From a virus (Duplodnaviria > Caudoviricetes), in the IMG/VR virus record IMGVR_UViG_3300017766_002047, positions 1-45,303 of that record: a DNA stretch of 45,303 nt. The stretch is one strand, 5' to 3'. Below are positions 780 to 44,841 of the stretch, piece after piece. The notes beneath the pieces are model-generated. The model was given only the letters and a program-made list of their open reading frames with translations, had not been told where the DNA came from and searched no databases. The first letter of the stretch is position 1. Every line of letters begins with the position of its first letter. The translations under genes were made by a program, and so were the position numbers.

Positions 780-821
780 CGGCACGGGATTTGCACTACA
801 CGAATGGTTCGCGTAGTGTAA
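779..821 (+). promoter_or_regulatory. Overlapping sigma54-like site (779-795) and sigma70-like promoter (TTGCAC-N17-TAGTGT) within an inverted repeat
   Basis: ACGGCACGGGATTTGCA fits GG-N10-GC. TTGCAC 791-796, TAGTGT 814-819. Imperfect palindrome 791-821. Confidence 0.6.
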
Positions 822-1972: not shown

Positions 1973-2337
1973 CACCCCGCGAAGCCGCCGCCCTGTTCAA
2001 GCTGCCGTACGACGACATGGACGCTGGATGGGGCAGCGACATTCGCGACGCCTACGCCGCGTTCGTGCGCGAGGATCACCCTGACAGCGGCACGGGCACC
2101 GGCGCGAACCTCAAGCGCTACAAGCTGGCGAAGGAAGTGTTGCTCGCCCACTTCACGAAGATGCCCAGTCGTACGAAGTGTTCCGTCTGTGACGGACATG
2201 GCGTGATAGTTGCAGGCGGGTTGAAACCAACCCCATGCCCGAAAGGATGCAAGAATGACCAAGGACCCGTATCTGGAGGCTCTGGAGGAACTGGACGCTT
2301 TGGCGGTCCAATCCGCACAGGAGGAGGCCGCTTTTAA
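1969..2337 (+). CDS. DnaJ-like J-domain protein with zinc-finger remnant
   Basis: IRDAY...EDHPD...AKEVL J-domain signature; CSVCDGHG and CPKGC motifs. Confidence 0.75.
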   Translation: MTPREAAALFKLPYDDMDAGWGSDIRDAYAAFVREDHPDSGTGTGANLKRYKLAKEVLLAHFTKMPSRTKCSVCDGHGVIVAGGLKPTPCPKGCKNDQGPVSGGSGGTGRFGGPIRTGGGRF

Positions 2338-2738: not shown

Positions 2739-4883
2739 ATGGCATCACTATTCGAGCAAGACCTCGCGCGCTCTGGCATCTCACCCGAGACAGCGTACGC
2801 GGCAGGCATCTACGAAGTAGCAAACGCGAAGGACGAGGTGCTGCCTGAGTTCAAGGCCGTGCCGTCCATCGTGTTCCCATACTTCGACCCTCGCAACCGC
2901 GATGAAGTCATGCGCTTTGAGCGTGACGGTCGTACGGAGGAGTTCGCTCGCGTGCGCTATATGCGCGTGCTGGGCAAGCAGCGCCGGTACGACCAGCCCC
3001 GTCAGTCTGGCATCATGGCCTACTTCCCGCGCATCCTCGACTGGCCCAGCATCATCGCGAACCCCAACGTGCCGATCATCATCACGGAGGGCGAGAAGAA
3101 AGCGCTTTCGCTCTGCGCGGCTGGCTATCCCTGCATCGGGCTGGGCGGCGTGGACAACTTCAAGTCGATGGGCCGTCTGATCGCCAGCCTCGAATGCGTG
3201 AACTGGGGCAAGCGCATCGTCATCATCCTGTTCGACAGCGACCGCGCCGAGAAGCCCCAGATACGCGTGGCCGAGGATCGTCTGGCCCAAGAGCTTTCGA
3301 CCCAGCGCGGCGCGGACATGCGGATCGCGCAACTGCCGCCCGGGCCTGACGGGATCAAGATGGGCGTGGACGACTACCTTGTGGCGTACGGCGTAGGTCC
3401 GCTGCTGGAGATCATCAAGCAAGCCATGCCGATCCGCAAGGTGGACGCTGCCGTACGGTCGCTCAACAGCGAAGTGGCGTGGATCGAGCGCGACGGTTGT
3501 CTGTACGACTATGACGGCGACGACATGCTCAGCAAGTCCAGCTTCGTGGAGGGCTCGCGGCACAGCATCCACAAGATCGCTCAGGCATCGCCCAACAGCA
3601 ACAAGGTCGTCACGGTCAGCGTGGCGAAGGAATGGCTCACACACCCGGAGGCCACGCGCTTCTGGGACGTGGTGTTCGACCCCTCGACAGACGAGCGCGT
3701 GATCCAGCGCGGCAACGGTCTGCCCAACATGAATATGTGGCGCGGCTTCCAACCTATCCCCGGCGACGTGACCCCCTTCCTTGAACTGAATGCCCACATC
3801 ACGCAGAACATGCACCCGGCTCAGCGCGACCTCCCGCTGAAGATCATGGCCTACAAGGCGCAGAACCCGGGCGAGAAGATACCGCTCGCCATCGCATTCG
3901 TCGGCGCGATCCAAGGCTCAGGCAAGTCGCTCTGGTGCGAACTGATGATGGACGCCTTCACGCCGTACGTCACAACCATCACCAGCGACGTGCTGAAGTC
4001 CGAGTTCAACGGCTGGACCGAGCGCAACATGATTACTTTCATTGACGAGGCCAAGCCCGACGAGATGCGGGAGTGCTCCGATAAGGTGAAGCGCCTGATT
4101 TCCGGCAACACCGTGCGGGCCAACGAGAAGTACCGCAAGGCGCGCGACGTACCGAACCACACGCTTGTCCTGATCGCGTCGAACTATCCCGAGATCGCGG
4201 CGACGGAGCGCGGCGACCGCCGGATGGTCATCGTTGCCTGCCCCGGCGCGCGTGAGAAGCCGTTCTATGACCGGATCAAGCACTGGCGTGAGAAAGAGGA
4301 CGGCGGGCTCCGCCTCCTCAACTACCTGCTGACGTACGACCTGCAAGGCTGGGTGCCACCGGCGCGACCGCCCGAGAGCCAAGAGCGGATCATGGCGCGG
4401 CAGGAGAGCCTGACGCCGATCCAGCAGCTTGCCGACACCATGCTCAACTCCGACCGCAACATCATCGCGATGTGGGCCGTGGACGCGCTCCGTACGGCGC
4501 AACAGATGCAGACGAACGACAACCCGTCCATCGCCGCGCATGGCCGCGATGCGTCAGTGTGGCTCAGCGAGATGCGTATCCGCCCCTTCTACACGCCCAA
4601 AGAGATCGCCATGTTGTTCCCTCACTTGGCCGAGACAGTGCTGGGCGGGCGTGGCTTCACGCAGCAACCGGCCAACGTGCTCAGCCGCGAGCTACGGAAG
4701 GCGCAAATCCCCTACCTCCTGTCAGCCGACAACCCCGAGGGCTTCATCTGGCAGGGCAAGCTGGCACAATTCTTGATTGTCACGGAGCACGAGGCGTTTC
4801 GGCGTCCCTATACGCAACACGAGTTCGATGAGATCGTACGGCACGCGCCCCGGCTCGCGGACCTCATAAAAGGATCAGGCTGA
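2739..4883 (+). CDS. Primase-helicase: N-terminal TOPRIM (DUF3854-like) primase plus C-terminal SF3-type helicase
   Basis: IITEGEKKA, FDSD and GVDDYL TOPRIM motifs; Walker A GAIQGSGKS, Walker B FIDE, motif C IASN; GGAG RBS before ATG 2739. Confidence 0.9.
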   Translation: MASLFEQDLARSGISPETAYAAGIYEVANAKDEVLPEFKAVPSIVFPYFDPRNRDEVMRFERDGRTEEFARVRYMRVLGKQRRYDQPRQSGIMAYFPRILDWPSIIANPNVPIIITEGEKKALSLCAAGYPCIGLGGVDNFKSMGRLIASLECVNWGKRIVIILFDSDRAEKPQIRVAEDRLAQELSTQRGADMRIAQLPPGPDGIKMGVDDYLVAYGVGPLLEIIKQAMPIRKVDAAVRSLNSEVAWIERDGCLYDYDGDDMLSKSSFVEGSRHSIHKIAQASPNSNKVVTVSVAKEWLTHPEATRFWDVVFDPSTDERVIQRGNGLPNMNMWRGFQPIPGDVTPFLELNAHITQNMHPAQRDLPLKIMAYKAQNPGEKIPLAIAFVGAIQGSGKSLWCELMMDAFTPYVTTITSDVLKSEFNGWTERNMITFIDEAKPDEMRECSDKVKRLISGNTVRANEKYRKARDVPNHTLVLIASNYPEIAATERGDRRMVIVACPGAREKPFYDRIKHWREKEDGGLRLLNYLLTYDLQGWVPPARPPESQERIMARQESLTPIQQLADTMLNSDRNIIAMWAVDALRTAQQMQTNDNPSIAAHGRDASVWLSEMRIRPFYTPKEIAMLFPHLAETVLGGRGFTQQPANVLSRELRKAQIPYLLSADNPEGFIWQGKLAQFLIVTEHEAFRRPYTQHEFDEIVRHAPRLADLIKGSG

Positions 4884-5311
4884 TGGAAGTCTCACCCGCA
4901 TACCTGCCCGGCGGCGAAATCCCCGAGGCGATGGGCATCGTCGGTGACTTGCTCAAAGAGGTGGAGGAGCTTCGCCTCGCATTCGAGAAGGGCGTGGTCG
5001 AGAAGCTGAAGGCGCGGGAGCATGAGCTTCGGGAGCATCTGATCGCAAATCTGGAGAAGTCCCGCGAAGGCGGCGGCGACACCGGCGCGGTCGGTCGCAA
5101 GTATCGCGTCCAGATCAAGGACAAGGAAGCGCCGCGCGTCCCCAAGGACAACTGGCCGCTGTTCTACGCCTACGTCCAGCGCACCGGCAGGTTCGACTTG
5201 CTACAGAAGCGGCTCAGTGATAAGGCTGTGCTGGAGATGAAGGACGCAGGGCAACTGCCGGATGGCATCGAAGTTGCATTGATCCCGACGATATCGCTCA
5301 CCAAGGTCTGA
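4883..5311 (+). CDS. Phage replication-module hypothetical protein
   Basis: WPLFYAYV...FDLLQKRLS resembles small proteins found next to phage SSB/PolA genes; coupled start. Confidence 0.75.
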   Translation: MEVSPAYLPGGEIPEAMGIVGDLLKEVEELRLAFEKGVVEKLKAREHELREHLIANLEKSREGGGDTGAVGRKYRVQIKDKEAPRVPKDNWPLFYAYVQRTGRFDLLQKRLSDKAVLEMKDAGQLPDGIEVALIPTISLTKV

Positions 5312-6123: not shown

Positions 6124-6408
6124 ATGAGCGACATTCCGATCATCGGCAAGAAGCCCGACCCCATGCAGGACATTGCTGGGCATCAGGCGGTCATCACCGA
6201 GGCGCTGAAGAAGCGCGAGGCTCTGTTCACGCACGCGGCGCTGGCCTGCATAGGCACGACCGCCATGTGTCTGGAGCAGCACGCCACGGCCAACGGCATC
6301 AAGCCCGAGGTGGCACGGATGATGGGCATGTCCCTTCTACAGCAGTTGCAAGCGATCACCACACGGGCGTTCGCGGAAACTGTTGACGACACGCAGCAGA
6401 TCAACTAG
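6124..6408 (+). CDS. Hypothetical protein
   Basis: ATG 6124 lies within the TAGGACGTACGACATG junction. Confidence 0.7.
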   Translation: MSDIPIIGKKPDPMQDIAGHQAVITEALKKREALFTHAALACIGTTAMCLEQHATANGIKPEVARMMGMSLLQQLQAITTRAFAETVDDTQQIN

Positions 6409-6417: not shown

Positions 6418-6762
6418 ATGGCTATTCAACGACTTCCCGAGCCCGGTCTGGGCCACAACGGCGGACCTCCGATGGAGGGCTCCGACGCGTCCCAAGCGAA
6501 CGCCAACCGGCTGACGCAGCAGGCGAAGGACAACCTCGCGGCGCTGGCCGACCGGATCAAGAACGTCCGCGAGGAGAAGAAAGCGCTGGGCGAGGCCGAG
6601 CGTGAAATCTTCGCGGAGGCCAAGGCGATGGGCTACGACCAGAAGGCACTGCGCGCCGCGCTCGCCCGCCAAGCCGCCGAGGAGAAGGACAAGCAGGCGC
6701 TGGAGGAGCACGAGCAAATCCGCGACCTCTACCTGCTGGTCCTGCAAGAGCAGAGTTCCTGA
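6418..6762 (+). CDS. gapR: GapR-like (DUF2312) DNA-binding protein
   Basis: RIKNVREEKKALGEAEREIFAEAKAMGYDQKALR matches the GapR/DUF2312 signature; GGAGG RBS. Confidence 0.8.
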   Translation: MAIQRLPEPGLGHNGGPPMEGSDASQANANRLTQQAKDNLAALADRIKNVREEKKALGEAEREIFAEAKAMGYDQKALRAALARQAAEEKDKQALEEHEQIRDLYLLVLQEQSS

Positions 6763-7381: not shown

Positions 7382-7734
7382 TGCTGGAGCCGGGGCACCT
7401 CAGTCCTGATCGGGCAGCGCGGTTGCTGACAGCCGCCGCGTTCGCCTACTACCGATGCAGCGAGAGCGTCATATCCGACGCGGAGAACGACGCTCTCGCC
7501 GTGTTCGTTGCCCACAACTGGGACTACCTGTCACCCGAGGTGCAGGAACGGCTCGACAGCGCAGACGCGATACGGGCCACGACGCACCACATCTGGATGA
7601 CCTCGAAAGACTACTTCGGCGCAATCGACTGGGCCTACTCGCTTGGCATAACTCTTGCAGCGCCACCGTTTGTGGCCGAGGCTGAGCAGGACACCCCCAG
7701 CGGTAAGGTCGGACTGATGGGGATCGGCGGATGA
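7381..7734 (+). CDS. Stand-alone NAD-dependent DNA ligase subdomain Ia-like protein
   Basis: AFAYY..SESVISDAENDAL resembles LigA Ia (YY...P.ISD.EYD); no KxDG adenylation motif. Confidence 0.65.
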   Translation: MLEPGHLSPDRAARLLTAAAFAYYRCSESVISDAENDALAVFVAHNWDYLSPEVQERLDSADAIRATTHHIWMTSKDYFGAIDWAYSLGITLAAPPFVAEAEQDTPSGKVGLMGIGG

Positions 7735-7919
7735 CGGCGAAGAACCAATTCCTCACACTGGAGGAGTTCTGTGACCTCCAAGTCGCCGCAGCCCGCGAGG
7801 TGGTGGACAGGCAGAACCCCGACATGCCCGAGGCCGACCGCGCGAAACTCGCCACGCAGGTGGCACACTACTTGCTTGCCGGATGGTCTGAGGCCGACAA
7901 CTTTGGGATGCTGCGATGA
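7731..7919 (+). CDS. Hypothetical protein
   Basis: ATGA-coupled on both sides. Confidence 0.6.
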   Translation: MTAKNQFLTLEEFCDLQVAAAREVVDRQNPDMPEADRAKLATQVAHYLLAGWSEADNFGMLR

Positions 7920-8164: not shown

Positions 8165-10043
8165 AGTCGTAACGATTGACTACGAGACGGACGCCATTGA
8201 CGACCGGCCCAACTACCCGCCGGAGCCTGTCGGCGTAGCGATCCAGCCGCCCGGCGAGCGTGGCTTCTACATGGCTTGGGGCCACCCCGAGGGCAACAAC
8301 TGCACGAAGCAGGAGGCGTACGACACGCTCCTCAACGTCTGGCGCTCTGGCTACGGCGTCCTGATGCACCACATGAAGTTCGACCTCGCTGTGTCGTACG
8401 AACGCATGGGCTTGCCCAAGCTCGACTGGAGCCGGGCGCACGACACGATGTACCTCAACTACCTGTTGGACCCACACTGCAAGCACGGCGGGCTGAAGGA
8501 ACTGGCCGAGGCCATCCTCAACTGGCCCCCAGACGAGCGCGACGAGGTGCGTGAGTGGGTCTGGCAGAACCGTGAGCGCCTGACAGCCCAGTACGGCGGC
8601 AAGATCACACGCGCGAAGAAAGGCCCCAACAGCGCAGGGGCGTGGATATCGAAGGCCCCGGGCACCGTGGTTGCGCCGTACGCCATAGGCGACGTGCATC
8701 GTACGTCAGGGCTGTTTGAGCACTACTGGCCGCAGATCGAGCGCTGGAGCCTACAGACGGCGTACGACCGCGAGCGGCAGGTGCTGCCCATCTTCATGGA
8801 GAACGAGTGCGTGGGCGTCCGCGTGGACGTGGCGGGCTTGGAGGCCGGGCTGGAGCAGACGCGTCGCGACTTCGCCAAGGCCGAGGACTGGCTCCGCCGG
8901 AGGCTCAACAGCAGCGGGCTCAACTTCGACGCCGATCAGGACGTGGCACAAGAATTGCTTCGCAACGGGGTCGTGCTGGAGGCAGACTTCAAGGAGACGG
9001 CAGGCGGCGACCTGTCCATGTCGAAGGACAACCTTCACCCCCGCGTGTTCCAAGATCAGGAAGTCGCCCGGGCGCTGGGCTATCGCAACCGACTGCTGAC
9101 CGCTATGCGGAATTTCATGGAGCCGTGGCATGAGCAAGCCGTACGACGGGGTGACGGGCACGTATCGACCAACTGGAACCTCACGCGCAACCCGGAAGGT
9201 GGCACGCGTACTGGCCGACCTTCTACGTCGAACCCGAACCTCCTCAACATCTCGAAAGATTTCGAGGGACGGCCTGACGGTTATGAGCATCCCGCCCATC
9301 TCGGGGTTTCTCCCCTGCCCCTCGTGCGTAAGTTCATCCTGCCAGACGAAGGGCATGTGTTCTGCCACCGGGACTTTAACGGTCAGGAGCTACGTGTGTT
9401 CGCGCACTTTGAGCGAGGGAAGCTCTGGCTAGCGTACGACGCAGACCCGTCCATCGACGTTCACGCGATGGTCAAGGACGACATTCTCCGCCTGTTCCCC
9501 GGCATCGCGCTGGACCGCACGAAGGTGAAGATCATCAACTTCCGCACGATCTACGGCTCTGGCGTGCCCGGGCTGGCGCGGTCGCTGATGGTGTCACAGG
9601 GCGAGGCCAAGCTGTTCAAGCGGGCGCACTCACAGGCGCTGCCGGGCATGGCCGACCTCAACGACGGCATCCTCCGCGTCGTACGGCGGGGCGAGCCGAT
9701 CAGGACGTGGGGCGGGCGCATCTACTTCCCCGAGCCGCCCTCCTACTCCAAGAAGTTCAAGAAGATCATGGACTGGGAGTACAAGCTGATGAACTACCTG
9801 ATCCAAGGGAGCGCCGCCGATATCACCAAGCAGGCGATGATCGACTGGGACCAGATACGCGACCCGGCCACGCGTTTTCTCGTGCAGGTGTACGACGAGA
9901 TCAACATCTCCTCGCCTGTCGATATCGCGGGCCGCGAGATGGCGAAGCTGAAGGACGTGATGAACCAGCCCCGGCTCACGGTCCCGATGCTGAGCGAAGG
10001 CAAGTGGGGCTACAACTGGGGCTCTCTGGAGAAAACAGCATGA
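8151..10043 (+). CDS. polA: Family A DNA polymerase (3'-5' exonuclease and polymerase domains)
   Basis: ExoI IDYET, KFDL, TRTGRPST..PNL, motif A DFNGQELR, motif B RTKVKIINFRTIYG, NYLIQGSAAD, motif C VYDE. Confidence 0.95.
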   Translation: MATPKVVTIDYETDAIDDRPNYPPEPVGVAIQPPGERGFYMAWGHPEGNNCTKQEAYDTLLNVWRSGYGVLMHHMKFDLAVSYERMGLPKLDWSRAHDTMYLNYLLDPHCKHGGLKELAEAILNWPPDERDEVREWVWQNRERLTAQYGGKITRAKKGPNSAGAWISKAPGTVVAPYAIGDVHRTSGLFEHYWPQIERWSLQTAYDRERQVLPIFMENECVGVRVDVAGLEAGLEQTRRDFAKAEDWLRRRLNSSGLNFDADQDVAQELLRNGVVLEADFKETAGGDLSMSKDNLHPRVFQDQEVARALGYRNRLLTAMRNFMEPWHEQAVRRGDGHVSTNWNLTRNPEGGTRTGRPSTSNPNLLNISKDFEGRPDGYEHPAHLGVSPLPLVRKFILPDEGHVFCHRDFNGQELRVFAHFERGKLWLAYDADPSIDVHAMVKDDILRLFPGIALDRTKVKIINFRTIYGSGVPGLARSLMVSQGEAKLFKRAHSQALPGMADLNDGILRVVRRGEPIRTWGGRIYFPEPPSYSKKFKKIMDWEYKLMNYLIQGSAADITKQAMIDWDQIRDPATRFLVQVYDEINISSPVDIAGREMAKLKDVMNQPRLTVPMLSEGKWGYNWGSLEKTA

Positions 10044-10168
10044 TTAACAAGATCAAATCCGCGCTTGTGGCGTTCGGCGTACTTGTGCTCTGCCTCGCCC
10101 TTCTGTTCATGATGGGCCTGTCGATGCTGGCACAGATGGGCTTCCGCTGGGGGCCGGGGGCGGCATGA
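10040..10168 (+). CDS. Small membrane protein
   Basis: ATGA overlap with polA; hydrophobic stretch. Confidence 0.5.
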   Translation: MINKIKSALVAFGVLVLCLALLFMMGLSMLAQMGFRWGPGAA

Positions 10169-10228
10169 GACTTGCATATCACATCTGGCTCGCGCTGATG
10201 GTCGGCGCGGTTGTAATGGGAGGTTGAC

Positions 10229-11892: not shown

Positions 11893-13942
11893 CGGCCAAC
11901 GCGCCGCCGTCGAGTTCCTTCTCTCTCATAGCTGCGCCGCGCTCTGGGCGGACCCGGGCGCAGGCAAGACCTCCATCACCCTGACGGCCTTCGTGGCGCT
12001 CCAGCAGGCTGGGGTTGCCCGTAAGATGCTGGTGATCGCCCCGCTGCGCGTCTGCCAGCTTACGTGGCGGCAGGAAACGTCGAAGTGGGCTCACACCCGC
12101 CACCTGACCGTCTCGCTGATCCACGGGAACAAGAAGGCCCAAGCCGCCGAGGCCGAGGCCGATATCTACCTCATTAACTACGAAGGCTTGGCTTGGCTGG
12201 AGAAGCACTTCAAGGGTCGTCCGCTGCCGTACGACACAGTGGTGTGCGACGAGATCACGAAGGTCAAGAACGCCCAGTCGAAGCGCTCCAAGTCGCTCCG
12301 CAAGCTCACCGCGCGCACGCCGCGCCGCTGGGGCCTGACCGGCACGCCCGCCCCGAACGGCTATCTGGACCTGTTCGGCCAGTACCTGTGGGTCGATCAG
12401 GGCGCGTCGCTGGGCGGCTTCTACAGCCACTACCGGCAGCGCTTCTTCCAGCCCTCGTTCGACGGCTTCAACTGGGACCTCCAGAAAGGCGCGGAGGAAC
12501 GCATCCACAAGGCCATCGCGGACTGCACGTTCCGCCTGTCCTACACCGACCTCCCGTCGATCCGCGACAACCCGATCTTCATCGAACTCGACGCTGCCTC
12601 GCGTAAGGCGTACGACGAGATGAAGAAGGAGGCCCTGATCGAAACCGAGGACGGTATCGTCACGGCGGCGAACAGTGCGGCGGTCTATTCCAAACTGAAA
12701 CAGATGGCGAACGGCGCGGTCTACGTCTCGGACAACACCGAGGGGAAGCGGCGTACGGTCGCCCACATTCACGATGCCAAGCTCGACGCGCTGGAGGACT
12801 TGGTGGAGGAGTTGAGCGGTCAGCCGCTCCTCGTCGCCTATGAGTTCCAGCACGACCTCGCCCGCATCCAAGCCCGCTTCCCGGGCACGCCGTACCTCGG
12901 ATCGGGCGTGTCGGAGAAGGACGCCGTTCGTATCCAGCGCGAGTGGAATGAGGGCAAAATCAAGATACTAGCCTGTCATCCGGCGTCCGTCGGACACGGG
13001 CTCGACTTCCAAGAGGGCGGCGCGGGCCACCTCGTCTGGTTCTCCGCGAGCTTCGACTTGGAACTATATGAGCAGTTCATCCGCCGCATCCGGCGTCAGG
13101 GCAACCCAAATGAGAGGGTTGTCAACCACCAGCTTATCGTGAGAAACACGATAGACGAAGTTGTGTTCGCGTCCCTCGTGACCAAGGACACCACACAGGC
13201 ACGGCTCTTGCAGGGCATTGCCAGCCTACTACGCAACGAAGATCAAACGGAGGCCCACATGGCTATTCAGAAACTCCCCTTCCAAGGTCAAGCCGGAGCC
13301 CCGCAAGCTCCCGCACCTCAACCCCAGCAGCAGCCGCAGTACGCGCCGCAGCCGCCCCAGTACGCGGCACCTCAACCGCCGCAACAGTACGCCCAACCGC
13401 CGCAGTGCGCACCGCCCCCGCCGCCCCCGGCTCCGCCGCAGCAGCCGGTCAGCAGCTTCGCCCAGCAGGCGCAGCACGCCCCGGTCCACGCCCAGACGCA
13501 GCAGGGCCAGCAGATCGAGGCCGGGCTTACTCAGCAGCCGGTCTACGCTCCCCCGCCGCCTCCGCCTGCCCCGGCAGGCAACGTGCCGCTGGTCGATCCG
13601 GCGCTCATGGCGCGGCTGGCCGGTGCGAACGGCGCTCACGGCGTCGAGGCTCAGCCCCCGGCTCCGCCGCCGCAGCAGCAGTATATCCAGACTGGGAACG
13701 AGCGCCCGCTCCAACCCGACCCCCAACCGGCGAACGTACAAACCGACGCCGGGGCGGAACAGCCGAAGGCCACACGGAGCCGGAGCCGTCGTACGACAGC
13801 TTCTGCTGCTACCGCTGCACCCGGCACCTCCGCCGAACCCTCCGCCGACGATGCCGACAGCGTGGTGAACGTCCACATCTCGTTCTCTGGCACCGACCCG
13901 GCGGCTGTGAAGGCCGCGATCAGGGCGTTCCTCGACGCCTAG
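11708..13942 (+). CDS. SNF2-family helicase with an in-frame Pro/Gln-rich C-terminal extension (start possibly TTG 11846)
   Basis: DPGAGKT, VCDE, LTGTP, HPASVGHGLD and QFIRRIRRQG; no stop before the PQ-rich tail. Confidence 0.9.
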   Translation: MTSFTSQAGGRGLSSSSAPASAPRSGNSTSSANSKKLVTTFLSSTALTRSAPSSFKEWVPSDGQRAAVEFLLSHSCAALWADPGAGKTSITLTAFVALQQAGVARKMLVIAPLRVCQLTWRQETSKWAHTRHLTVSLIHGNKKAQAAEAEADIYLINYEGLAWLEKHFKGRPLPYDTVVCDEITKVKNAQSKRSKSLRKLTARTPRRWGLTGTPAPNGYLDLFGQYLWVDQGASLGGFYSHYRQRFFQPSFDGFNWDLQKGAEERIHKAIADCTFRLSYTDLPSIRDNPIFIELDAASRKAYDEMKKEALIETEDGIVTAANSAAVYSKLKQMANGAVYVSDNTEGKRRTVAHIHDAKLDALEDLVEELSGQPLLVAYEFQHDLARIQARFPGTPYLGSGVSEKDAVRIQREWNEGKIKILACHPASVGHGLDFQEGGAGHLVWFSASFDLELYEQFIRRIRRQGNPNERVVNHQLIVRNTIDEVVFASLVTKDTTQARLLQGIASLLRNEDQTEAHMAIQKLPFQGQAGAPQAPAPQPQQQPQYAPQPPQYAAPQPPQQYAQPPQCAPPPPPPAPPQQPVSSFAQQAQHAPVHAQTQQGQQIEAGLTQQPVYAPPPPPPAPAGNVPLVDPALMARLAGANGAHGVEAQPPAPPPQQQYIQTGNERPLQPDPQPANVQTDAGAEQPKATRSRSRRTTASAATAAPGTSAEPSADDADSVVNVHISFSGTDPAAVKAAIRAFLDA
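13259..13942 (+). CDS. Pro/Gln-rich low-complexity protein from an internal in-frame start
   Basis: GGAGG 13249-13253 then ATG 13259 (MAIQKLP...). Confidence 0.6.
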   Translation: MAIQKLPFQGQAGAPQAPAPQPQQQPQYAPQPPQYAAPQPPQQYAQPPQCAPPPPPPAPPQQPVSSFAQQAQHAPVHAQTQQGQQIEAGLTQQPVYAPPPPPPAPAGNVPLVDPALMARLAGANGAHGVEAQPPAPPPQQQYIQTGNERPLQPDPQPANVQTDAGAEQPKATRSRSRRTTASAATAAPGTSAEPSADDADSVVNVHISFSGTDPAAVKAAIRAFLDA

Positions 13943-15319: not shown

Positions 15320-15421
15320 AGATGGGCCTCCTGTGGGCGCTGGTGAGAAAGGGCGGTTTGTGGGACGTGGGTAGCGGGCGTGTCGTCCGAGGCGGCTCCT
15401 GCCTCAAGCCTCGCAGACTTT

Positions 15422-16006
15422 TTAGGCGGCTCGATGCCTTGCCATCTGGGACATGGCGGCGATGGCTCCGAGATAGCGATCCTTCGCCTCGTGCCAGTCC
15501 CACGGCTTGATCTTGATCGGAAGCGGACCCCATTCGTCCCATTCGGCGGGGTAGTCCCAACGCCAGCCGGTCTTGGCGCAAAGCTGGTCCTTCTCGGTGA
15601 GGAACATCTGGGCGTCGAGCTTCTTCGTCTCGGGCCGCACGTACAGGGGCACCGGGATACCGCGCCGGTCGAGCGAGGTGCGGATGGCTAGGTCCATGTC
15701 GTCCTCGATCTGCCGGAACTGCGGCATGATCCGCTTCAGCGGCGTCCGCATGTCGCCCATGTACGCCTCGGGCGCGTCGTGGAACAGGAAGTCGAGGCCG
15801 AGCACGGGGTCGTTCGTGGCGGACAGAATGTGCTGCGCGCCGAGCACCTGATGCTGGGCCACGCTGTAGGGGAACTTCGTCGCCCCGCCGAAGCGGTTCA
15901 CCATCGAGAGGTGATGCGCGATATCCTCCAGCGTGTAGCGGTTCTTGTAGAGGAGTGGGAACTCAAAGGCGATCTTCTCGCCAGTGACCGTCGTGGTGTA
16001 CGCCAT
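15422..16006 (-). CDS. HD-domain phosphohydrolase (YfbR/YfdR-like 5'-deoxynucleotidase)
   Basis: DIAHHLS..NRFGG..YSVAQH...LFHDAPEAYMGD; AGGAGG RBS before ATG 16006. Confidence 0.85.
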   Translation of the reverse strand: MAYTTTVTGEKIAFEFPLLYKNRYTLEDIAHHLSMVNRFGGATKFPYSVAQHQVLGAQHILSATNDPVLGLDFLFHDAPEAYMGDMRTPLKRIMPQFRQIEDDMDLAIRTSLDRRGIPVPLYVRPETKKLDAQMFLTEKDQLCAKTGWRWDYPAEWDEWGPLPIKIKPWDWHEAKDRYLGAIAAMSQMARHRAA

Positions 16007-16032
16007 AGGTTGCCTCCTGTCGTACGGTTGAA

Positions 16033-17888: not shown

Positions 17889-17917
17889 TCGGTACAGCAA
17901 GAGGCGTGCCGCGTCAA
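17889..17917 (-). promoter_or_regulatory. sigma54-like site (17912-17896) nested in a weak sigma70-like promoter upstream of the A1-like operon
   Basis: Minus strand TTGACGCGGCACGCCTCTTGCTGTACCGA contains GG-N10-GC. Confidence 0.6.
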
Positions 17918-35574: not shown

Positions 35575-37245
35575 TCAACGTCCCATCCAGCCGTTCGGGG
35601 CTGCGGTGCCCCCTTGGGACAGCGTAGTTTGCGAATGTACCTCCATCGGGGGTGCCCTGTCAATCATATCGAACGAGGGTTTGGGCGGAGGCTTCTTCCA
35701 GTCACCGATATACACAAGATCAGCGAACGTCAAGGCGCACGCGTCGCCCATATCGGGGCTGCGCTGCCCTTTCGAGCGCATTTCCTGCTTCGACACCAGT
35801 TGGAGGTCGTTCGTGAGGGTCGGTTTGATGAGCGCGGACAGCAGATCGGCGTGGAGATCGTCCTGATCGGGGATTTCGACGCCTTCTTCGCTGTCGAGCC
35901 ACCTTTTCAGGCGCTCCCACATCTCCGCCCGGCGGTTGACCGGGCCAGCGACGAGCGGGCGAGCGTTCTTGTGCTGCGATTTCGAGCCGAAGTTGACGGC
36001 GCGCACGCGGTCGCCGTAGCGCGGCCCCTTGGCACGCAGGAAGCCGATGATGTAGCGCCCGGGACCGCCGCTGTCGATGAACACAATGGCCGGGTCGTAC
36101 GTGTCGATCAGGCTGATGATCCAGTCGAGCGCTTCCGGCTCGGTCAGCTTCTGCCGTACGAGCACCTTCTCGATCTTATGCCCGCGACGAAACGCCACAC
36201 AGAAGCGGTCGCCGTTCTTGACGCCCGCCTCGATACCGTCGCCGCCCGGGTCCACGCCCAGAATGAGCGGGCCGGAGGGCTCCAGCTTGCGTTTGCGGGC
36301 TTTCAGGATCGACAGAGCGGAGATCAGGGCCGCTTTCTCCGCCGATTGGAACGCCTCGTCGGGCGTGGCCGGGTATTCCTGCTTGAAAGCGCCGGGGCCA
36401 CCAAGCTCCTGCATCTTCATGCGCCGCCAGTACATCTGGCCCATGTCGAGGCCGAACATTTCGGCGTACTCGGCGTCCGAATAGTCGCCGTCCACGGGGG
36501 TGGCGTCGAGTTCAAAGCCCGGCGGGGGCTCGCGGCGGTATTCCGGCGTCCAGAACCACGGGATGAACACCGCGATGTAGTCGCCAATGCCGCGCACGGC
36601 GTCCTGCCACTTCTCGTAGAACTGGCCCTCGGGTCCGTTGGCCGTGCTTTCGAGGAAGATTTCCGTGCCCGGCAGGAGCGGGACGGCCTGCACGGACGCC
36701 TTGAAGTGGTCGGTGTCGTTCTTCCAGAAGCCCACCTCGGAGCCGTGGAAGATCGTGATCGTCGTGCCCCGGCCTGACGCCTTCGACCCGGCGGTCGCCA
36801 CGGTGTACTTCGACTTCAGCCGCTCGAATGAGAGTTCCTTCACGTTCGACTTGCCCGTCGTCGGGGCAACCGGGTTGTGAAGGTGGTAGCGCTCGGCCAT
36901 CGCGAAGATGCCTTCGGCGGATTTCTGCTCGTGCGACAAAATGTACGCGTGGACGTTGGGCCACAGGGAGGTGCGCCAGTAGAACCGACCCTCAACGTAG
37001 GTCGAGATGCCCTGCTGTCGGCCCTTCAGGACCAGCACGCGGACGAAGCCCTTCTCGCGGCGCTGCTGCTCGACACGGTTGTGGAGGTACATCTGCGGGG
37101 CGTTGAGCGTGAACGGCACGAGGTTGCCGCCCTTGTCGAGCACCTTCAGGTTCTGCTCCGCGAACTTGGGGAACTCTCCGCGCCACCGGCGGATTTGCTC
37201 CTTGGCCTGCATGAGCTTGGGGTCGTTTACGCGATGGACTGCCAA
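35575..37245 (-). CDS. terL: Terminase large subunit
   Basis: LKGRQQGIST Walker A, HGSEVGFW, ESTANG, GVDPG and SPDMGDA nuclease motifs. Confidence 0.95.
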   Translation of the reverse strand: MAVHRVNDPKLMQAKEQIRRWRGEFPKFAEQNLKVLDKGGNLVPFTLNAPQMYLHNRVEQQRREKGFVRVLVLKGRQQGISTYVEGRFYWRTSLWPNVHAYILSHEQKSAEGIFAMAERYHLHNPVAPTTGKSNVKELSFERLKSKYTVATAGSKASGRGTTITIFHGSEVGFWKNDTDHFKASVQAVPLLPGTEIFLESTANGPEGQFYEKWQDAVRGIGDYIAVFIPWFWTPEYRREPPPGFELDATPVDGDYSDAEYAEMFGLDMGQMYWRRMKMQELGGPGAFKQEYPATPDEAFQSAEKAALISALSILKARKRKLEPSGPLILGVDPGGDGIEAGVKNGDRFCVAFRRGHKIEKVLVRQKLTEPEALDWIISLIDTYDPAIVFIDSGGPGRYIIGFLRAKGPRYGDRVRAVNFGSKSQHKNARPLVAGPVNRRAEMWERLKRWLDSEEGVEIPDQDDLHADLLSALIKPTLTNDLQLVSKQEMRSKGQRSPDMGDACALTFADLVYIGDWKKPPPKPSFDMIDRAPPMEVHSQTTLSQGGTAAPNGWMGR

Positions 37246-37996: not shown

Positions 37997-38025
37997 TATT
38001 TACACTCTGCCGTACGGAGCGTCAA
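37997..38025 (-). promoter_or_regulatory. Putative sigma70 promoter giving a leaderless terS mRNA
   Basis: TTGACG-N17-TAAATA; ATG begins 7 nt after the -10 box; no SD. Confidence 0.55.
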
Positions 38026-38411
38026 CTGTCGTCGTCGGAAAATTCGTTAACTGCGTCGTCCACGCCCCACGGTGCGTTCCGCTTCAGCCAGTGGCTGAGC
38101 CCGCCCGGGGTCAGGTCCATGCCGCGCGCTATGTCTCGATCCGTCATGCCCGCCTTGCGCCCGGCCTGCACGAGACGCAGCCGGAACACGATGATCTCGG
38201 CTGCTATGCCGCCCTGCTTGGTGCGTGTCCGCTTCCGGTTGTCGCGTAGGAGGGCCAGCACGTCCTCGGCCTCTGGGTGCCGGTGCATCCACTGGTTGAG
38301 GGCGGGCGCGCTGAGCTTCAACCGCTCGGCTGCTTCGGCCCCGTTGAGCCCTTCGGCGGCGAGCGCGACGAGCGCCTTGAGCCGGGCCTTGTTGCGATCT
38401 TCTCGGTTCAT
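38022..38411 (-). CDS. Double helix-turn-helix DNA-binding protein
   Basis: GLNGAEAAERLKLSAPALNQW and GMTDRDIARGMDLTPGGLSHW; ATGA overlap at 38411. Confidence 0.7.
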   Translation of the reverse strand: MNREDRNKARLKALVALAAEGLNGAEAAERLKLSAPALNQWMHRHPEAEDVLALLRDNRKRTRTKQGGIAAEIIVFRLRLVQAGRKAGMTDRDIARGMDLTPGGLSHWLKRNAPWGVDDAVNEFSDDDS

Positions 38412-38854
38412 CCGCGCGACCCCGGCAGTGCGACGAAGTTGCAGCCCCCGCCGGTGTTGCGGTCGTGCTTCGCGGCGCACGAGATGGCCTGCCGGGCGGA
38501 GGCTCCGAACTGCATGGCCCCGAGGGCGTACTCCGCACCGGAGCCGATGGCGAAGAACTTGCCCTCGATCTTGTAGCCGCCGAAGCGGTCGTGGAACTCG
38601 ACGGTGCCGTCGGGTCGTACGATCAGCACGTCGATATCGTCGTCGGGGTTCGACCCCATGTGCGGCTTGAAGCCCTGCTCCCCGTTGAGGAACCACGTCG
38701 TGTACCGATGCAGGAGCGAGTTCACGCCGCACCCGCCGATCAGCGCGCCGTCCTTGCGCTTGTGGACCTTGCGGAAGCGGTAGCTCGAAAGCTCGCCTGC
38801 CGTTGCCTGCCTGTCACCCGCGAGGATGCCGTCCCGGTACGCGATGGTGGTCAT
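38408..38854 (-). CDS. HslV/proteasome beta-subunit-like Ntn peptidase
   Basis: N-terminal (M)TTIA, AGDRQ.T, K, AIGSG..YALGAM and D..TGG. Confidence 0.8.
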   Translation of the reverse strand: MTTIAYRDGILAGDRQATAGELSSYRFRKVHKRKDGALIGGCGVNSLLHRYTTWFLNGEQGFKPHMGSNPDDDIDVLIVRPDGTVEFHDRFGGYKIEGKFFAIGSGAEYALGAMQFGASARQAISCAAKHDRNTGGGCNFVALPGSRG

Positions 38855-38857: not shown

Positions 38858-39073
38858 TCACCGCTTCGGCTTGGTGGTCTTGGCCTTGGCAGCAGCAGCG
38901 TTCTGGCGGGCGATGGCCTCCGCGATGGCCTTCTGCACCGCCGGGTCCTTGGACCGCTCGATGCTCGGGCCTGCGACCTTGCCGGTCACGACCGTCTTGG
39001 GGTCGGGCTTCGGCGGCGGGGGCTTGGGCTTCCCGCTCATTGCGTCGCTCAGGGTTTTGTACGGATCGGCCAT
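38858..39073 (-). CDS. Small basic hypothetical protein (first late gene)
   Basis: AAGGAGG RBS. Confidence 0.7.
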   Translation of the reverse strand: MADPYKTLSDAMSGKPKPPPPKPDPKTVVTGKVAGPSIERSKDPAVQKAIAEAIARQNAAAAKAKTTKPKR

Positions 39074-39202
39074 GTGTGCCTCCTTCGATTGGACCTAAGC
39101 ATCATACCGACCGCTACGCCGAATGGCAAGCTCAGAACCAGCCAGCCCAGCAGAAATTCCATGAGGCACCTCGTGTGAAAATTTTGTGGAATTTTTGCGG
39201 TA

Positions 39203-39220
39203 TAGCTGCTGGGCTGTCAA
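39203..39220 (-). promoter_or_regulatory. Putative late-operon promoter element TTGACAGCCCAGCAGCTA
   Basis: Perfect -35 box; near-identical copy before the lysis genes. Confidence 0.5.
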
Positions 39221-39351
39221 GTCTATGAGGAGTGTAAATGCTTCGCTGCTGGGCGTCTTAGCACCCCTAAAATTGGTGGTATAGTTTATGCCTCGACATT
39301 AGCGAAGCCTCCCGCTCTCCCCCCGAACCACCCCCCGGGTCATTTGGTTAA

Positions 39352-39595
39352 TTGGCACGCGTCTTGCTTAGCAGCCCAGCCAGCCTAGCCGCTATGACTT
39401 GGCACGCGTATTGCATTAGCACTGTCCATGCCATCGCTGCTTGGCACGCTTCTTGCGTTGTCATGCAATGTGCCAAGCCGCTTGGCATGATCCTTGCCCA
39501 CGCAACCCTTGTGCCGTACGTCATGACCACACAGCAGCTAAGGGCTTGGCCGCTTGGCAACTTGGCATGGTTCTTGTCGGCAAGGATCGTGCCAC
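39352..39595. promoter_or_regulatory. Array of sigma54 (RpoN) -24/-12 consensus sites in both orientations
   Basis: Plus strand starts: 39352, 39399, 39441, 39482 and near-match 39562. Minus strand starts: 39434, 39517, 39595 and near-match 39476. Confidence 0.85.
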
Positions 39596-40034
39596 CTACC
39601 CAGAACAAAACATGAAAACGCTCCAGATCGCGAAGTCGAGAGGCTCGGCTACCCTAGCAGCCCAGACCGCTAACGCTTATGGGTGACGCTCTAATAGCGA
39701 TTGAGAGGGGGTGCATATTTTGCCGCTTGGCCGCCGGGCGGGCGGGGGTGAGCCGTACGGCGGGAGGAGGCGGGGTCACGCGTACGCGTTCTGTGGGGGA
39801 TGGAAGTCTGTAATTACAAGCGAGGATATAGAGAGGGGTTTATATATCAGCAGGTGTAATAACAGTGTTGGTAGGGTCACAAGGGGGAGAGTTGCCCAGC
39901 AGCCCAGCAGCCTAGAAAGATAATGGCGATTACAGCAAAAAAGATGCAGCTTTATCGTTTAGCGATATGTACTCTGCTAATCCTTCCTGTATGGTTGGCT
40001 TATCGAAAGACGGACACACAAGGAACTGGCGACC

Positions 40035-40331
40035 ATGACCGAACAAGGAATGCTGCAAAAGCTCATTCGCACCTGCAAGGCAAACGGGGCAACTCTGTTT
40101 CGTATCCATGAGGGTGAGGACTGGGCTTGTGAGCCGACCTCCAATGAGCGGCAGCTTATGGACGCCGCTAACTCAACCGGCGAGGACAACCTTTACTGTT
40201 ATGACGCCGACGGCACGCGTCTGGGCCGCTTCTATCTGGTCTGGGGCAATGACCCCAGCGGCGAGGAGTTGATCGCGGACTACGGTATCACCCCGTTCAC
40301 TGAGGCGGTTGACGCCGCTATGCGAGCCTGA
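40035..40331 (+). CDS. Early hypothetical protein
   Basis: AAGGA RBS; first gene of the rightward early cluster. Confidence 0.75.
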   Translation: MTEQGMLQKLIRTCKANGATLFRIHEGEDWACEPTSNERQLMDAANSTGEDNLYCYDADGTRLGRFYLVWGNDPSGEELIADYGITPFTEAVDAAMRA

Positions 40332-40333
40332 CA

Positions 40334-40363
40334 ACCCCGGGAGGGGGCAACCCCTCCCAACCC
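40334..40363 (+). repeat. 30-bp intergenic direct repeat, copy 1 (GNRA hairpin)
   Basis: ACCCCGGGAGGGGGCAACCCCTCCCAACCC, identical to 41170-41199. Confidence 0.9.
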
Positions 40364-40380
40364 TTTCAAGGATCACGACA

Positions 40381-41163
40381 ATGCTGCAACCTGACCTCCC
40401 TGTTTACCCCGTGCCCGCGCTTGTGCCCCCGTGCCCGGCGATCATTGCCAAAGCGCCGCGCGGCCCAGACCGCCCGACGGAGGAGCAATACGGCGACTTT
40501 CAAGCGGCGTACGACTTCTTTAACCGGGAGTTGTTTGAGGGGCGCTTGCCGCAATGCCTCATAACGCTGGTCCGCTCGCGACGCTTTCGCGGCTACTTCC
40601 TGACGGAAGGCTTTGCGTCGGCTGACGGCGAGGGGCGCAAAACGGACGAGATCGCCATGAACCCGGAGAGCTTCGCCGGTCGCACGGATAAGGCGATCCT
40701 CTCTACGCTAGTGCATGAGATGACACACCTTGAGCAATACCATTTCGGCAAGCCTTCGCCGGGCGGGTATCATAACAAGGAATGGGGCACGCTCATGAAG
40801 CGCGTCGGGCTCTACCCGTCCAACACTGGCGCGCTTATGGGCAAGGAAACGGGCGTCCAGATGACGCATTACATTCTGGAAAAGGAAGCCTTTTGCGTCG
40901 CGGCTGACAAGCTGATCGCGTCGGGCTGGTCTATCCGCTGGCGCACCCCGTCCGACCTCCTCTTGGCCGCTGCGGGCGGTCTGTCCAGCTTCGTGCCCCC
41001 GTCCATGCCCCAACTGACGGGCAAGCGCGCCGTAGCCAAGCGCGCCAGCAAAACCCGCTACACCTGCCCAGTGAGCGGCGCTAACGCTTGGGGCAAGCCC
41101 GGGCTGACGCTATACACTGCGGAGGGCGCTGCAACGCTGCAACCCATGCGAGAGGAGGACTAG
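40381..41163 (+). CDS. SprT-like zinc metalloprotease
   Basis: AYDFFNRELF, EIAMNP, STLVHEMTH and YHNKEW. Confidence 0.85.
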   Translation: MLQPDLPVYPVPALVPPCPAIIAKAPRGPDRPTEEQYGDFQAAYDFFNRELFEGRLPQCLITLVRSRRFRGYFLTEGFASADGEGRKTDEIAMNPESFAGRTDKAILSTLVHEMTHLEQYHFGKPSPGGYHNKEWGTLMKRVGLYPSNTGALMGKETGVQMTHYILEKEAFCVAADKLIASGWSIRWRTPSDLLLAAAGGLSSFVPPSMPQLTGKRAVAKRASKTRYTCPVSGANAWGKPGLTLYTAEGAATLQPMREED

Positions 41164-41169: not shown

Positions 41170-41199
41170 ACCCCGGGAGGGGGCAACCCCTCCCAACCC
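41170..41199 (+). repeat. 30-bp intergenic direct repeat, copy 2
   Basis: Identical to 40334-40363. Confidence 0.9.
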
Positions 41200-42102: not shown

Positions 42103-42119
42103 GCGGCACGACAATTGCA
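42103..42119 (+). promoter_or_regulatory. Solo sigma54-like promoter
   Basis: GCGGCACGACAATTGCA in the intergenic gap, 30 nt before ATG 42149. Confidence 0.6.
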
Positions 42120-42554: not shown

Positions 42555-42723
42555 CGTTGACCAGATCATGCGCTATGAGGCGGGCGAGATGGGCGAGGAG
42601 GAGATGGTTTCCATGTTCCAAGGGCTCATAGACACCGGCATGGCGTGGCGCTTGCAGGGTCACTATGGCCGCGCCGCCCAAGCGCTGATCGAGAACGGCT
42701 ACTGCACACCCCGCGCCGCGTAA
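42547..42723 (+). CDS. Small phage hypothetical protein (58 aa)
   Basis: GGAGG RBS; FQGLIDTGMAWRLQGHYGRAA motif. Confidence 0.7.
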   Translation: MPDVDQIMRYEAGEMGEEEMVSMFQGLIDTGMAWRLQGHYGRAAQALIENGYCTPRAA

Positions 42724-44245: not shown

Positions 44246-44841
44246 GCGTGAAATATCCGAAGTTCCCGGCGGAGATACTGCCGAGCGTGGACTGGCTCAT
44301 TGCGTGGGCCAACGCACAAGCGCCCGAGGGAGCGCGCCGCCTTGGGACCGAGCTAGCGCTGCTGACCTTGCGCGCGGCGTTCAAGGAGCGCATGGCCGAG
44401 ATCGCACCAGCCGAGCAGCAAGACGGTCGTACGACTGCCTACTCTGTGCGCCTTGTGCTGCACAACGAGGCCAACGAGATCGAATGGATCAGCCGCTGGC
44501 AGCATGGCCTGCAAGGGCTGGGGAGCGTGTGGCGCTATGTCGAGGGCTCTGTGCCCTACATGCACCAATCGCGCGGCCTGACCGCTCCTCCCGCCGAACT
44601 GACGTACGACGCACTGTCCAAGCGCGAGAACACTGCGCGCGTGAGCATGTCGCGCAAGCAAAACGGCGTAGCAGCCGTGCGCGTGCCTCATGTGACGATG
44701 ACAGGTGGCGTGAGATTTGCAGCTACAGATGTGGGCCTGCCTCAGAAGTGGATACTGAGGATCGACGTGGGGCCGCAGGAACATGGCGTTGCGCTGGATC
44801 AAGCAGAGCGCGCCGCGAAATCACCGCTCGTTGTGAGCTAG
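44242..44841 (+). CDS. Early hypothetical protein
   Basis: GAGG RBS, ATG 44242. Confidence 0.65.
   Translation: MSVKYPKFPAEILPSVDWLIAWANAQAPEGARRLGTELALLTLRAAFKERMAEIAPAEQQDGRTTAYSVRLVLHNEANEIEWISRWQHGLQGLGSVWRYVEGSVPYMHQSRGLTAPPAELTYDALSKRENTARVSMSRKQNGVAAVRVPHVTMTGGVRFAATDVGLPQKWILRIDVGPQEHGVALDQAERAAKSPLVVS

What the first reader, a model, noticed from the sequence alone, without database searches (positions are those of the whole stretch)
39352..39595. Phased, bidirectional array of sigma54 (RpoN) binding sites: candidate RpoN-holoenzyme decoy or docking platform
Seen: nine 17-mers in about 245 bp of non-coding DNA. Plus strand: TTGGCACGCGTCTTGCT (39352), TTGGCACGCGTATTGCA (39399), TTGGCACGCTTCTTGCG (39441), TTGGCATGATCCTTGCC (39482) and near-match TTGGCATGGTTCTTGTC (39562). 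Minus strand: ATGGCATGGACAGTGCT (39434-39418), ACGGCACAAGGGTTGCG (39517-39501), GTGGCACGATCCTTGCC (39595-39579) and near-match TTGGCACATTGCATGAC (39476-39460). Seven keep exact GG-N10-GC spacing while the central bases vary, which suggests selection for the motif rather than simple tandem duplication. Same-strand spacings are 47/42/41/80 and 42/41/78 bp, about 4 or 8 helical turns, with head-to-head pairs. Established: TGGCACG-N4-TTGC is the sigma54 -24/-12 consensus, and sigma54-RNAP forms stable closed complexes that open only with an AAA+ enhancer-binding protein. No GAFTGA-type activator is visible here, and no gene lies close to the array. Inference: the array may be a DNA-encoded sponge that titrates host RpoN and so shuts down flagellum, pilus or nitrogen regulons. 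Alternatively it may be a protein-coated platform near the genome end that protects or ratchets incoming DNA, since it sits in the divergent early/late gap where a terminus or origin is likely.
Basis: partly seen in the sequence, partly recalled or inferred. Interest (0 to 1): 0.92.

Follow-up and report, generated by a model that had tools for sequence, protein, structure and literature searches.

The report
Phage genome-end sigma-54 landing pad
An uncultured freshwater phage packs nine copies of the DNA motif read by the bacterial sigma-54 transcription factor, mostly face to face, just upstream of its DNA-packaging genes, and places thirteen more single copies along its early and replication genes, so it likely uses this host protein both as a silent coat on the end of its incoming DNA and, separately, as a promoter-recognition factor.

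Summary
Confirmed: nine sigma-54 (-24/-12) boxes at 39352-39595, eight in head-to-head pairs, in the gene-free gap between the terminase operon and the early genes of a complete 45.2-kb podophage. Helical phasing is only partly true. The layout recurs in about 150-850 viral stretches (by pattern), against 4 for a wrong-spacing control and 3 in 185,579 prokaryote genomes; the pair gap peaks at 4 bp. Arrays lie upstream of a terminase gene in 19 of 43 loci. In cultured phages with mapped ends, boxes lie in the terminal repeat (Adele 6 of 12; Psa315 one pair) but not always (PseuGes_254), and two PAK_P3 boxes give no listed transcription start. Best reading (0.45): a non-firing host sigma-54/RNAP landing pad that anchors or shields the entering DNA end. 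New here: 13 sense and 0 antisense single boxes on the early/replication arm, 7-8 at promoter distance from start codons, plus one heading a T5-A1 operon, with no activator gene. Binding, genome ends and function are untested. The scan noted such arrays, and such promoter sets, before on other DNA; my ten literature searches found neither described.

The parts
39352..39595 (.). Array of nine sigma-54 boxes: + at 39352, 39399, 39441, 39482, 39562; - ending at 39434, 39476, 39517, 39595; four head-to-head pairs (gaps 4, 4, 4, 2 bp)
39277..39292 (+). Weaker tenth box (12.4 bits) overlapping the -10 hexamer of a sigma-70-like site
39258..39285 (+). Sigma-70-like site (9 of 12, extended -10) pointing into the array and the early arm; consensus match only
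39101..39129 (-). Sigma-70-like promoter (10 of 12) facing the HslV-HTH-terminase-structural arm
35575..37245 (-). Terminase large subunit, transcribed away from the array (2.1 kb away)
   Evidence: PHROG 2, E 3e-33
38022..38411 (-). Orphan double-HTH protein; no sign that it is the ligand
42104..42119 (+). Single box, intergenic, predicted start 19 nt before ATG 42149
42641..42656 (+). Single weaker box, 84 nt before ATG 42751
44706..44721 (+). Single box in the 3' part of an early gene
780..795 (+). Single box, intergenic, 31 nt before ATG 837
2199..2214 (+). Single box, 30 nt before ATG 2255, ahead of the primase-helicase
4762..4777 (+). Single box in the primase 3' end, 95 nt before ATG 4883
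5263..5278 (+). Single box, 33 nt before ATG 5322
7644..7659 (+). Single box, 61 nt before ATG 7731
7861..7876 (+). Single perfect box, 29 nt before ATG 7916, ahead of DNA polymerase A
8944..8959 (+). Single perfect box inside DNA polymerase, no start codon near (1259 nt)
10161..10176 (+). Single box, 42 nt before GTG 10229 (nuclease/helicase block)
13197..13212 (+). Single box inside the SNF2 helicase, 36 nt before an in-frame internal ATG (13259) with its own ribosome-binding site; that Met is kept in 90% or more of 18 homologs
17896..17911 (-). Single box, intergenic, 23 nt before the ATG of a T5 A1 homolog heading a nucleotide-salvage operon; the only promoter-placed box on the late strand
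6418..6762 (+). GapR-like nucleoid protein, pointing to an alphaproteobacterial host (inference)
   Evidence: PF10073 E 7e-14

Best explanation
The array is a cluster of nine sigma-54 consensus boxes that likely captures host sigma-54, probably as closed RNA-polymerase complexes, on what is inferred to be the end region of the phage chromosome, where it would act as a non-firing protein coat that anchors or shields the DNA during and just after entry. Shown: boxes, geometry, position upstream of the terminase operon, recurrence in unrelated lytic-type phages, location inside mapped terminal repeats of two cultured phages, no phage sigma-54 or activator. Established: sigma-54 holoenzyme binds such boxes in a stable, inactive state without an activator. 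Inferred: head-to-head pairing puts each box over the melting region of its partner and so keeps the sites silent; this genome's physical end lies near the array; bound protein prevents back-slip or slows end-loading nucleases. The 14 single boxes are a separate use, most likely middle-mode promoters opened by a host activator or an unrecognised phage factor (my odds 0.6).
For: Spacing control: about 310 against 4 viral stretches. Three-box pattern: about 150 viral stretches against 3 in 185,579 prokaryote genomes. Pair gap, searched over 0-30 bp: 37 of 93 sequence groups at 4 bp, 71 of 93 at 3-7, none at 0-2; the two spacers of a pair are not complementary (0-1 of 4 alike in 66 of 93), so not hairpins or inverted copies. 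Terminase gene within 3 kb and reading away from the array in 19 of 43 loci scanned (128 of 251 ORFs submitted; some loci are kin). Adele: 6 of 12 boxes inside the 1165-bp PhageTerm repeat, P 4e-9, 4 of the 6 inside annotated CDSs, so not merely free space. Psa315: a head-to-head pair at 108-140 of a 529-bp repeat. SYP: a box inside a 351-bp end repeat. G029: six inward boxes within 330 bp of each inverted-repeat end. T5-like Vibrio phage D419: boxes interleaved with DnaA, LexA and CRP motifs beside the A1/A2 genes. PAK_P3: no listed TSS between 48439 and 51049 although boxes lie at 50797(-) and 50946(+). No Sigma54_DBD in 0 of 31 records and no convincing activator (1 weak 25-residue hit in 31, none in this genome). 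A strain variant has 5 substitutions in the array, none at a conserved box position (by hand P about 0.05-0.1). Inactive holoenzyme binding in vivo: PMC4591121.
Against: The ends of this genome are not mapped: the contig is a circular assembly (123-nt overlap), only contigs were available, and the nearest cultured terminases are 36-39% identical, one beside a P22-type small terminase, so headful packaging without fixed ends is possible. The array is dispensable within the terminase group: L002 (61% TerL identity) has none in 8.3 kb upstream. PseuGes_254 has no box near either record end; T5, YuA and Bas95 have no exact box; PAK_P3's boxes are not in the stretch I took for its likely repeat. 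Pakpunavirus-type phages also keep a second cluster about 11 kb from the end. G029 encodes a polymerase of the protein-primed type by genome layout (inference), whose ends should already be capped. No cultured phage examined has a dense 8-9 box array. RecBCD is known to evict bound RNA polymerase (recalled, not checked). No binding or phenotype was tested.
Confidence: 0.45

Rival explanations
1. Transcriptional control element: the boxes are activator-dependent early promoters, or a loading zone feeding the 14 single boxes, or bound sigma-54 represses the sigma-70-like promoter that points into the array.
For: This genome has 13 sense and 0 antisense boxes on the early arm, 7 of 13 at 15-65 nt from an annotated start (P 3e-5). 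The five + boxes face the early arm; a weak box overlaps the -10 of a sigma-70-like site. Activators lacking a DNA-binding domain can open any closed complex (PMC3844500). G013 and G029 have tandem same-direction boxes.
Against: Six other whole records (G002, G009, G011, G012, G013, G017) have the array with almost no dispersed boxes, so the array does not need a promoter set. Pairs overlap each other's melting regions. No TSS listed at PAK_P3's boxes. Single intragenic sites did not act as roadblocks in E. coli (PMC4591121).
Confidence: 0.2
2. DNA sponge: replicated genomes titrate host sigma-54 and silence its regulon (Psp, flagella, pili, nitrogen).
For: High-consensus sites, no activator, near absence from cellular genomes, which fits a cost to the host. 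Decoy roles are named as a possibility for silent sites in PMC4591121.
Against: Nine sites against more than 250 chromosomal sites (PMC4591121) matter only after replication. A sponge needs neither end location nor a fixed 4-bp pair gap. This phage appears to need sigma-54 for its own genes and encodes an A1 homolog linked to host DNA degradation.
Confidence: 0.13
3. Packaging or replication landmark: bound sigma-54/RNAP marks the site for terminase, or blocks forks during terminal-repeat duplication, as IHF serves lambda cos and the T4 late sigma serves packaging (both recalled).
For: 19 of 43 loci lie upstream of a terminase gene; boxes in mapped repeats; a two-way array suits a two-way barrier.
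Against: The neighbouring terminases belong to several PHROG families (2, 38, 979); a 61% relative lacks the array; inverted-repeat and T5-like genomes use the boxes away from terminase cut sites.
Confidence: 0.14
4. The motif is read by a phage protein (the 38022-38411 HTH, small terminase or a dimeric repressor), and the likeness to sigma-54 is incidental.
For: The palindromic pair with a preferred gap looks like a dimer site; an HTH gene is 940 bp away.
Against: The same 16-bp consensus, with strict spacing, occurs in 59 unrelated array groups that share no HTH homolog (0 of 30) and no sigma-54-like domain; the HTH is an orphan with generic matches.
Confidence: 0.05

Closest known systems
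Bacterial sigma-54 (RpoN) -24/-12 sites, including silent and intragenic ones (E. coli ChIP-seq, PMC4591121; Salmonella, PMC3844500)
   Same: Same consensus and strict spacing; bound as inactive holoenzyme; intragenic sites lean to the sense strand (58 of 85 in E. coli).
   Different: Bacterial sites are single; the three-box alternating pattern was found 3 times in 185,579 genomes. Here nine boxes sit in 245 bp in overlapping pairs, with no enhancer or activator gene found.
T5 injection-stop region with its DnaA-box array (Davison, bioRxiv 10.1101/866236; in silico model)
   Same: Non-coding cluster of host-protein binding sites in first-entering DNA of a lytic phage, proposed to anchor it; a T5-like Vibrio phage mixes DnaA, LexA, CRP and sigma-54 boxes; this phage has an A1 homolog.
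   Different: Ligand is sigma-54, not DnaA; T5 itself has no exact sigma-54 box; this is a 45-kb P22-type podophage without a known two-step entry; the preprint passages I saw do not mention sigma factors.
Sigma-54-like promoter of Pseudomonas phage YuA (P015; PMC10914365, citing Ceyssens 2008, which I did not see)
   Same: A lytic phage said to use host sigma-54.
   Different: One promoter; YuA has no exact box and one 1-mismatch site; no array, no genome-wide set.
Protein end-protection and Chi strategies against RecBCD (Mu Gam, T4 gp2, lambda Gam; recalled; need stated in 10.1101/866236)
   Same: Would solve the same problem: a free end exposed before phage proteins are made.
   Different: Here the cap would be a host transcription complex recruited by sequence, needing no phage protein.

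Membership tests
sigma-54 binding site | -24 GG and -12 GC elements with exact spacing | tested here: met
   7 of 9 exact; shuffles and wrong-spacing control
sigma-54 binding site | Physical binding of sigma-54 or its holoenzyme | not testable with these tools
   needs EMSA, footprint or ChIP
sigma-54 binding site | Host encodes RpoN | tested here: inconclusive
   host unknown; GapR-like gene suggests Alphaproteobacteria; Caulobacter control rings for PF04552
Enhancer-dependent sigma-54 promoter (array boxes) | Gene start shortly downstream in the same direction | tested here: not met
   334-656 nt to the next co-directional start
Enhancer-dependent sigma-54 promoter (single boxes) | Gene start shortly downstream in the same direction | tested here: met
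   13 sense, 0 antisense; 7 of 13 within 15-65 nt, P 3e-5; plus 17911 at 23 nt
Enhancer-dependent sigma-54 promoter (single boxes) | Upstream enhancer or IHF site | tested here: not met
   best shared word in 6 of 13 upstream regions, no more than random sets (5-11); no IHF-like match in 13
Enhancer-dependent sigma-54 promoter | Cognate AAA+ activator with GAFTGA | tested here: not met
   none in this genome; a host activator was not testable
Enhancer-dependent sigma-54 promoter | Transcription start about 12 nt past the GC | not testable with these tools
   no RNA run listed; PAK_P3 boxes show no TSS
T5-type injection-stop region | Ordered DnaA-box array in a long terminal repeat | tested here: not met
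   one 1-mismatch DnaA-like match in the 961-bp gap
T5-type injection-stop region | A1 and A2 genes in first-step DNA | tested here: inconclusive
   A1 homolog present (37%) but 21 kb from the array; A2 not searched for specifically, no PHROG hit among 68 ORFs
Terminal repeat or pac region | Physical DNA end at or near the element | not testable with these tools
   only assembled contigs available
CRISPR, tandem repeat or structured RNA | Near-identical repeat units or a known RNA family | tested here: not met
   units 13-28 of 42 alike; one Rfam hit at 18 bits against a cut-off of 45; DNA fold z -2.1, explained by the paired motifs

The most novel reading that the evidence does not exclude
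Many unrelated lytic phages build a sequence-encoded cap on their incoming DNA from host sigma-54 RNA polymerase locked in face-to-face closed complexes, and this phage also runs its replication and host-DNA-degradation genes from sigma-54 promoters opened without any recognisable enhancer-binding protein, which would imply an unknown, non-GAFTGA activator or bypass factor among its small early proteins.
Probability: 0.2. Interest if true: 0.92.

Novelty: new variant of a known kind. Interest (0 to 1): 0.74.

Why it matters
How linear phage DNA survives and finishes entering before any phage protein is made is an open question. A cap made of a host sigma factor would be a new answer, and it can be tested now: Pakpunavirus and Otagovirus phages, some used in therapy and biocontrol work, carry these boxes in mapped terminal repeats and their hosts have rpoN mutants. 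The conserved 4-bp head-to-head geometry has almost no counterpart in bacterial genomes and asks whether two sigma-54 molecules can share such a pair. The promoter-placed single boxes point to a phage middle-gene programme on sigma-54 with no visible activator, which would tie phage growth to host activator state or reveal a new way to open sigma-54 complexes.

Tried and rejected
Genome ends from reads: only contigs are held; no RNA holder listed. A 96%-identical strain has depth 66-75 over 39009-40410 against 0-33 elsewhere in three runs of one study; rejected as terminal-repeat evidence because contig depth is flat, the ends carry amplification-tag-like tails and the region is AT-richer. BLAST of the array or gap against cultured phages gave only E 0.3-3 hits; I used some as leads, so Kat, UAVern, SYP and D419 are a biased pick. 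Close whole-genome relatives were not found; 80 helicase-related loci at 36-50% identity show about one box per 10 kb and no clear promoter set (L431 and L432 lean to +), so conservation of the single boxes is untested. Among 29 other array loci of 8 kb or more, most have 0-4 single boxes (one has 10, mixed orientation); my sense/antisense labels there came from a crude ORF caller and mislabelled the window itself, so I dropped them. Same-strand periods of 39-49 bp were imposed by my search pattern and are not used. DnaA boxes are five times denser near arrays (15 in 42 kb against 29 in 410 kb; 7 of 29 loci), but intergenic AT bias was not controlled. No shared enhancer word. A1 homolog in only 2 of 30 array records, so not a partner of arrays. 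Melting-region AT content does not separate array from single boxes. No structure prediction or complex job was run. Packaging mode of the nearest terminases was not found in PMC11990801.

Full report
Setting. The window is one complete phage contig with a 123-nt assembly overlap (45,180 bp unique), 64% GC, held by a freshwater metagenome that may be its source. A P22-type virion arm (terminase, portal, coat, ejection proteins) reads leftward from 39073; an early and replication arm (primase-helicase, GapR-like protein, family A polymerase, exonuclease, SNF2 helicase, endolysin) reads rightward from 40035 through the junction to 14696. No integrase or RNA polymerase was hit among 68 ORFs scanned. 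GapR suggests an alphaproteobacterial host (inference). Nearest cultured terminases and polymerases are under 40% identical.

Observation. The nine boxes are as described. Twelve sites in the genome are within one mismatch of the consensus against 0.75 in shuffles; the gap holds ten matrix hits against 0.15 per strand. Eight boxes form four head-to-head pairs with 4, 4, 4 and 2 bp between the -12 elements. Helical phasing holds for the 41-42 bp steps only. A strain variant seen in three runs of one study has five substitutions in the array: two in box spacers, three between boxes.

The layout is widespread in phages and nearly absent from cells. Two same-strand boxes 24-34 bp apart: about 310 viral stretches (estimate from 26 of 64 parts); the same pattern with one extra base in each box: 4. 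Head-to-head pairs: about 850 stretches (10 of 64 parts); after grouping 124 loci into 93 sequence groups the gap is 4 bp in 37, 3-7 bp in 71 and never 0-2, and the two spacers of a pair are no more complementary than chance. A three-box alternating pattern: about 150 viral stretches against 3 contigs in 185,579 prokaryote genomes, all in metagenome bins. The scan had noted this recurrence on other DNA; I had stated my reading before that look-up.

Where arrays sit. Of 43 loci whose larger ORFs I scanned (128 of 251 ORFs from 45 loci), 19 have a terminase gene within 3 kb, always reading away from the array; several others end at the array. The terminases belong to different families. In 30 whole records the exact boxes are mostly confined to one cluster (150 of 223 matches listed). 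In cultured phages: Adele has 6 of 12 boxes (at most 1 mismatch) in its 1165-bp repeat, mapped by PhageTerm per PMC12846349 (passages; P 4e-9), and three perfect boxes including a head-to-head pair 11 kb inside; Psa315 has a pair at 108-140 in its 529-bp repeat; SYP has one box in a 351-bp end repeat. Against: PseuGes_254 (628-bp repeat per PMC11512268, passages) has none near either record end; T5, YuA and Bas95 have no exact box; AXL3, PW916 and H6/1 show only background; L002, with a 61% identical terminase, has no array. The T5-like Vibrio phage D419 mixes sigma-54 boxes with DnaA, LexA and CRP motifs (recalled consensus) next to A1 and A2, which links the feature to the DnaA-box model of T5 entry (10.1101/866236; part 1 of 6 and passages).

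Are array boxes promoters? No co-directional start lies within 330 nt, and each paired box covers the region its partner would melt (geometry; inference). In PAK_P3 the published start list has nothing between 48439 and 51049 although consensus boxes lie at 50797(-) and 50946(+) (PMC10914365 supplement, part 3 of 15 and term searches); that is two boxes in one phage, not a pair. In E. coli most sigma-54 is bound as inactive holoenzyme (PMC4591121, passages and section 10).

What is special here. Outside the gap, the 19.8-kb early arm has 13 matrix hits on the sense strand and none on the other, against 1.3 per strand; the 24.4-kb late arm has background levels. Seven of the 13 put a predicted start 19-61 nt before an annotated start codon (P 3e-5 given my gene list); an eighth precedes an in-frame internal ATG of the helicase whose Met is conserved. 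The one promoter-placed box on the late strand heads the only block there with a non-structural job: a T5 A1 homolog (E 6e-94) and two nucleotide-salvage enzymes. One perfect box (8944) has no start near it. No activator is encoded: no PF00158 match, P-loops only in the helicase, the primase and one antisense frame, no GAFTGA in a plausible frame; no shared enhancer word or IHF site. Activators without a DNA-binding domain can open any closed complex (PMC3844500, passages), so a host route exists. Six other whole array-bearing records lack such a dispersed set, and distant helicase relatives lack it too, so array and promoter set are separable. Earlier scan notes report promoter sets in other phages (not checked by me); I saw none that reports both in one genome, but I saw only a few lines of each.

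Mechanism. Steps shown: motif, geometry, context, spread, absence of phage sigma-54 and activator. Steps from established knowledge: stable activator-dependent closed complexes. Steps inferred: binding in this host, silence of paired boxes, closeness to the physical end, and a benefit through anchoring or shielding. I give that reading 0.45, a transcriptional role 0.2, a packaging or replication landmark 0.14, a sponge 0.13 and a phage ligand 0.05 (HTH orphan). The weakest link is that this genome's ends are unmapped and its terminase may be of the headful type.

Novelty. Ten full-text searches (listings and abstract starts) returned no paper on sigma-54 box arrays, head-to-head pairs or their place in phage terminal repeats; the library lacks most subscription papers and bioRxiv supplements were closed, and I did not see Ceyssens 2008. 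The parts are known (sigma-54 boxes; host-protein box clusters in T5 entry DNA), the arrangement and use are not. I file it as a new variant of a known kind, with a 0.2 chance that it is a new cap-plus-activator system. Interest 0.74.

Noticed in passing
window 13197-13942 (+): Nested isoform: a sigma-54 box, ribosome-binding site and in-frame ATG (13259) inside the SNF2 helicase could give a separate 227-aa Pro/Gln-rich protein with a short conserved C-terminal tail; the Met is kept in 90% or more of 18 homologs.
   Followed up: partly
window 14876-17862 (-): T5 A1 homolog (37% over 492 aa) with extra N-terminal HTH repeats, followed by an HD 5'-deoxynucleotidase and a dATP/dGTP diphosphohydrolase; no PurZ hit among the 68 ORFs scanned.
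   Followed up: partly
window 40334-40363 and 41170-41199: Identical 30-nt hairpin directly after the stop codons of the first two early genes; could be a processing site or terminator.
   Followed up: no
window 39143-39910: A 10-nt word recurs at 39370, 39656 and 39898, with looser copies at 39143, 39205 and 39245, only in the gap; candidate phage-protein or terminase site.
   Followed up: partly
window 38408-38854 (-) and 40381-41163 (+): An HslV-family peptidase and an SprT-like metalloprotease flank the gap; substrates unknown.
   Followed up: no
L381 11900-12050, L382 11340-11450, L390 4800-4900: Kat, UAVern and PAK_P3 share a short GC-rich, hairpin-like element next to their inner sigma-54 boxes and between sigma-70 promoters; seen by eye, possibly a small RNA.
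   Followed up: no
Kat, PaP1, PAK_P1, Adele, UAVern, SYP: Sigma-54 boxes bracket an 11-12 kb block of small early genes on both sides, recalling the size of T5's first-step DNA.
   Followed up: partly
L383 (OZ195672 106345-107607) and L385 (T5 6121-6213, 9411-9510): LexA motifs lie beside the DnaA boxes in both T5 and Vibrio phage D419; D419 adds CRP and sigma-54 motifs.
   Followed up: partly
L020 2915-3700: A 147-kb viral contig has 26 boxes in one cluster and 42 in 6.7 kb, arranged in same-strand runs.
   Followed up: no
PMC10914365 supplement, YuA P015: The 50 bases upstream of the YuA start labelled sigma54 show, by eye, a sigma-70-like -35/-10 pair and no -24/-12 consensus.
   Followed up: no
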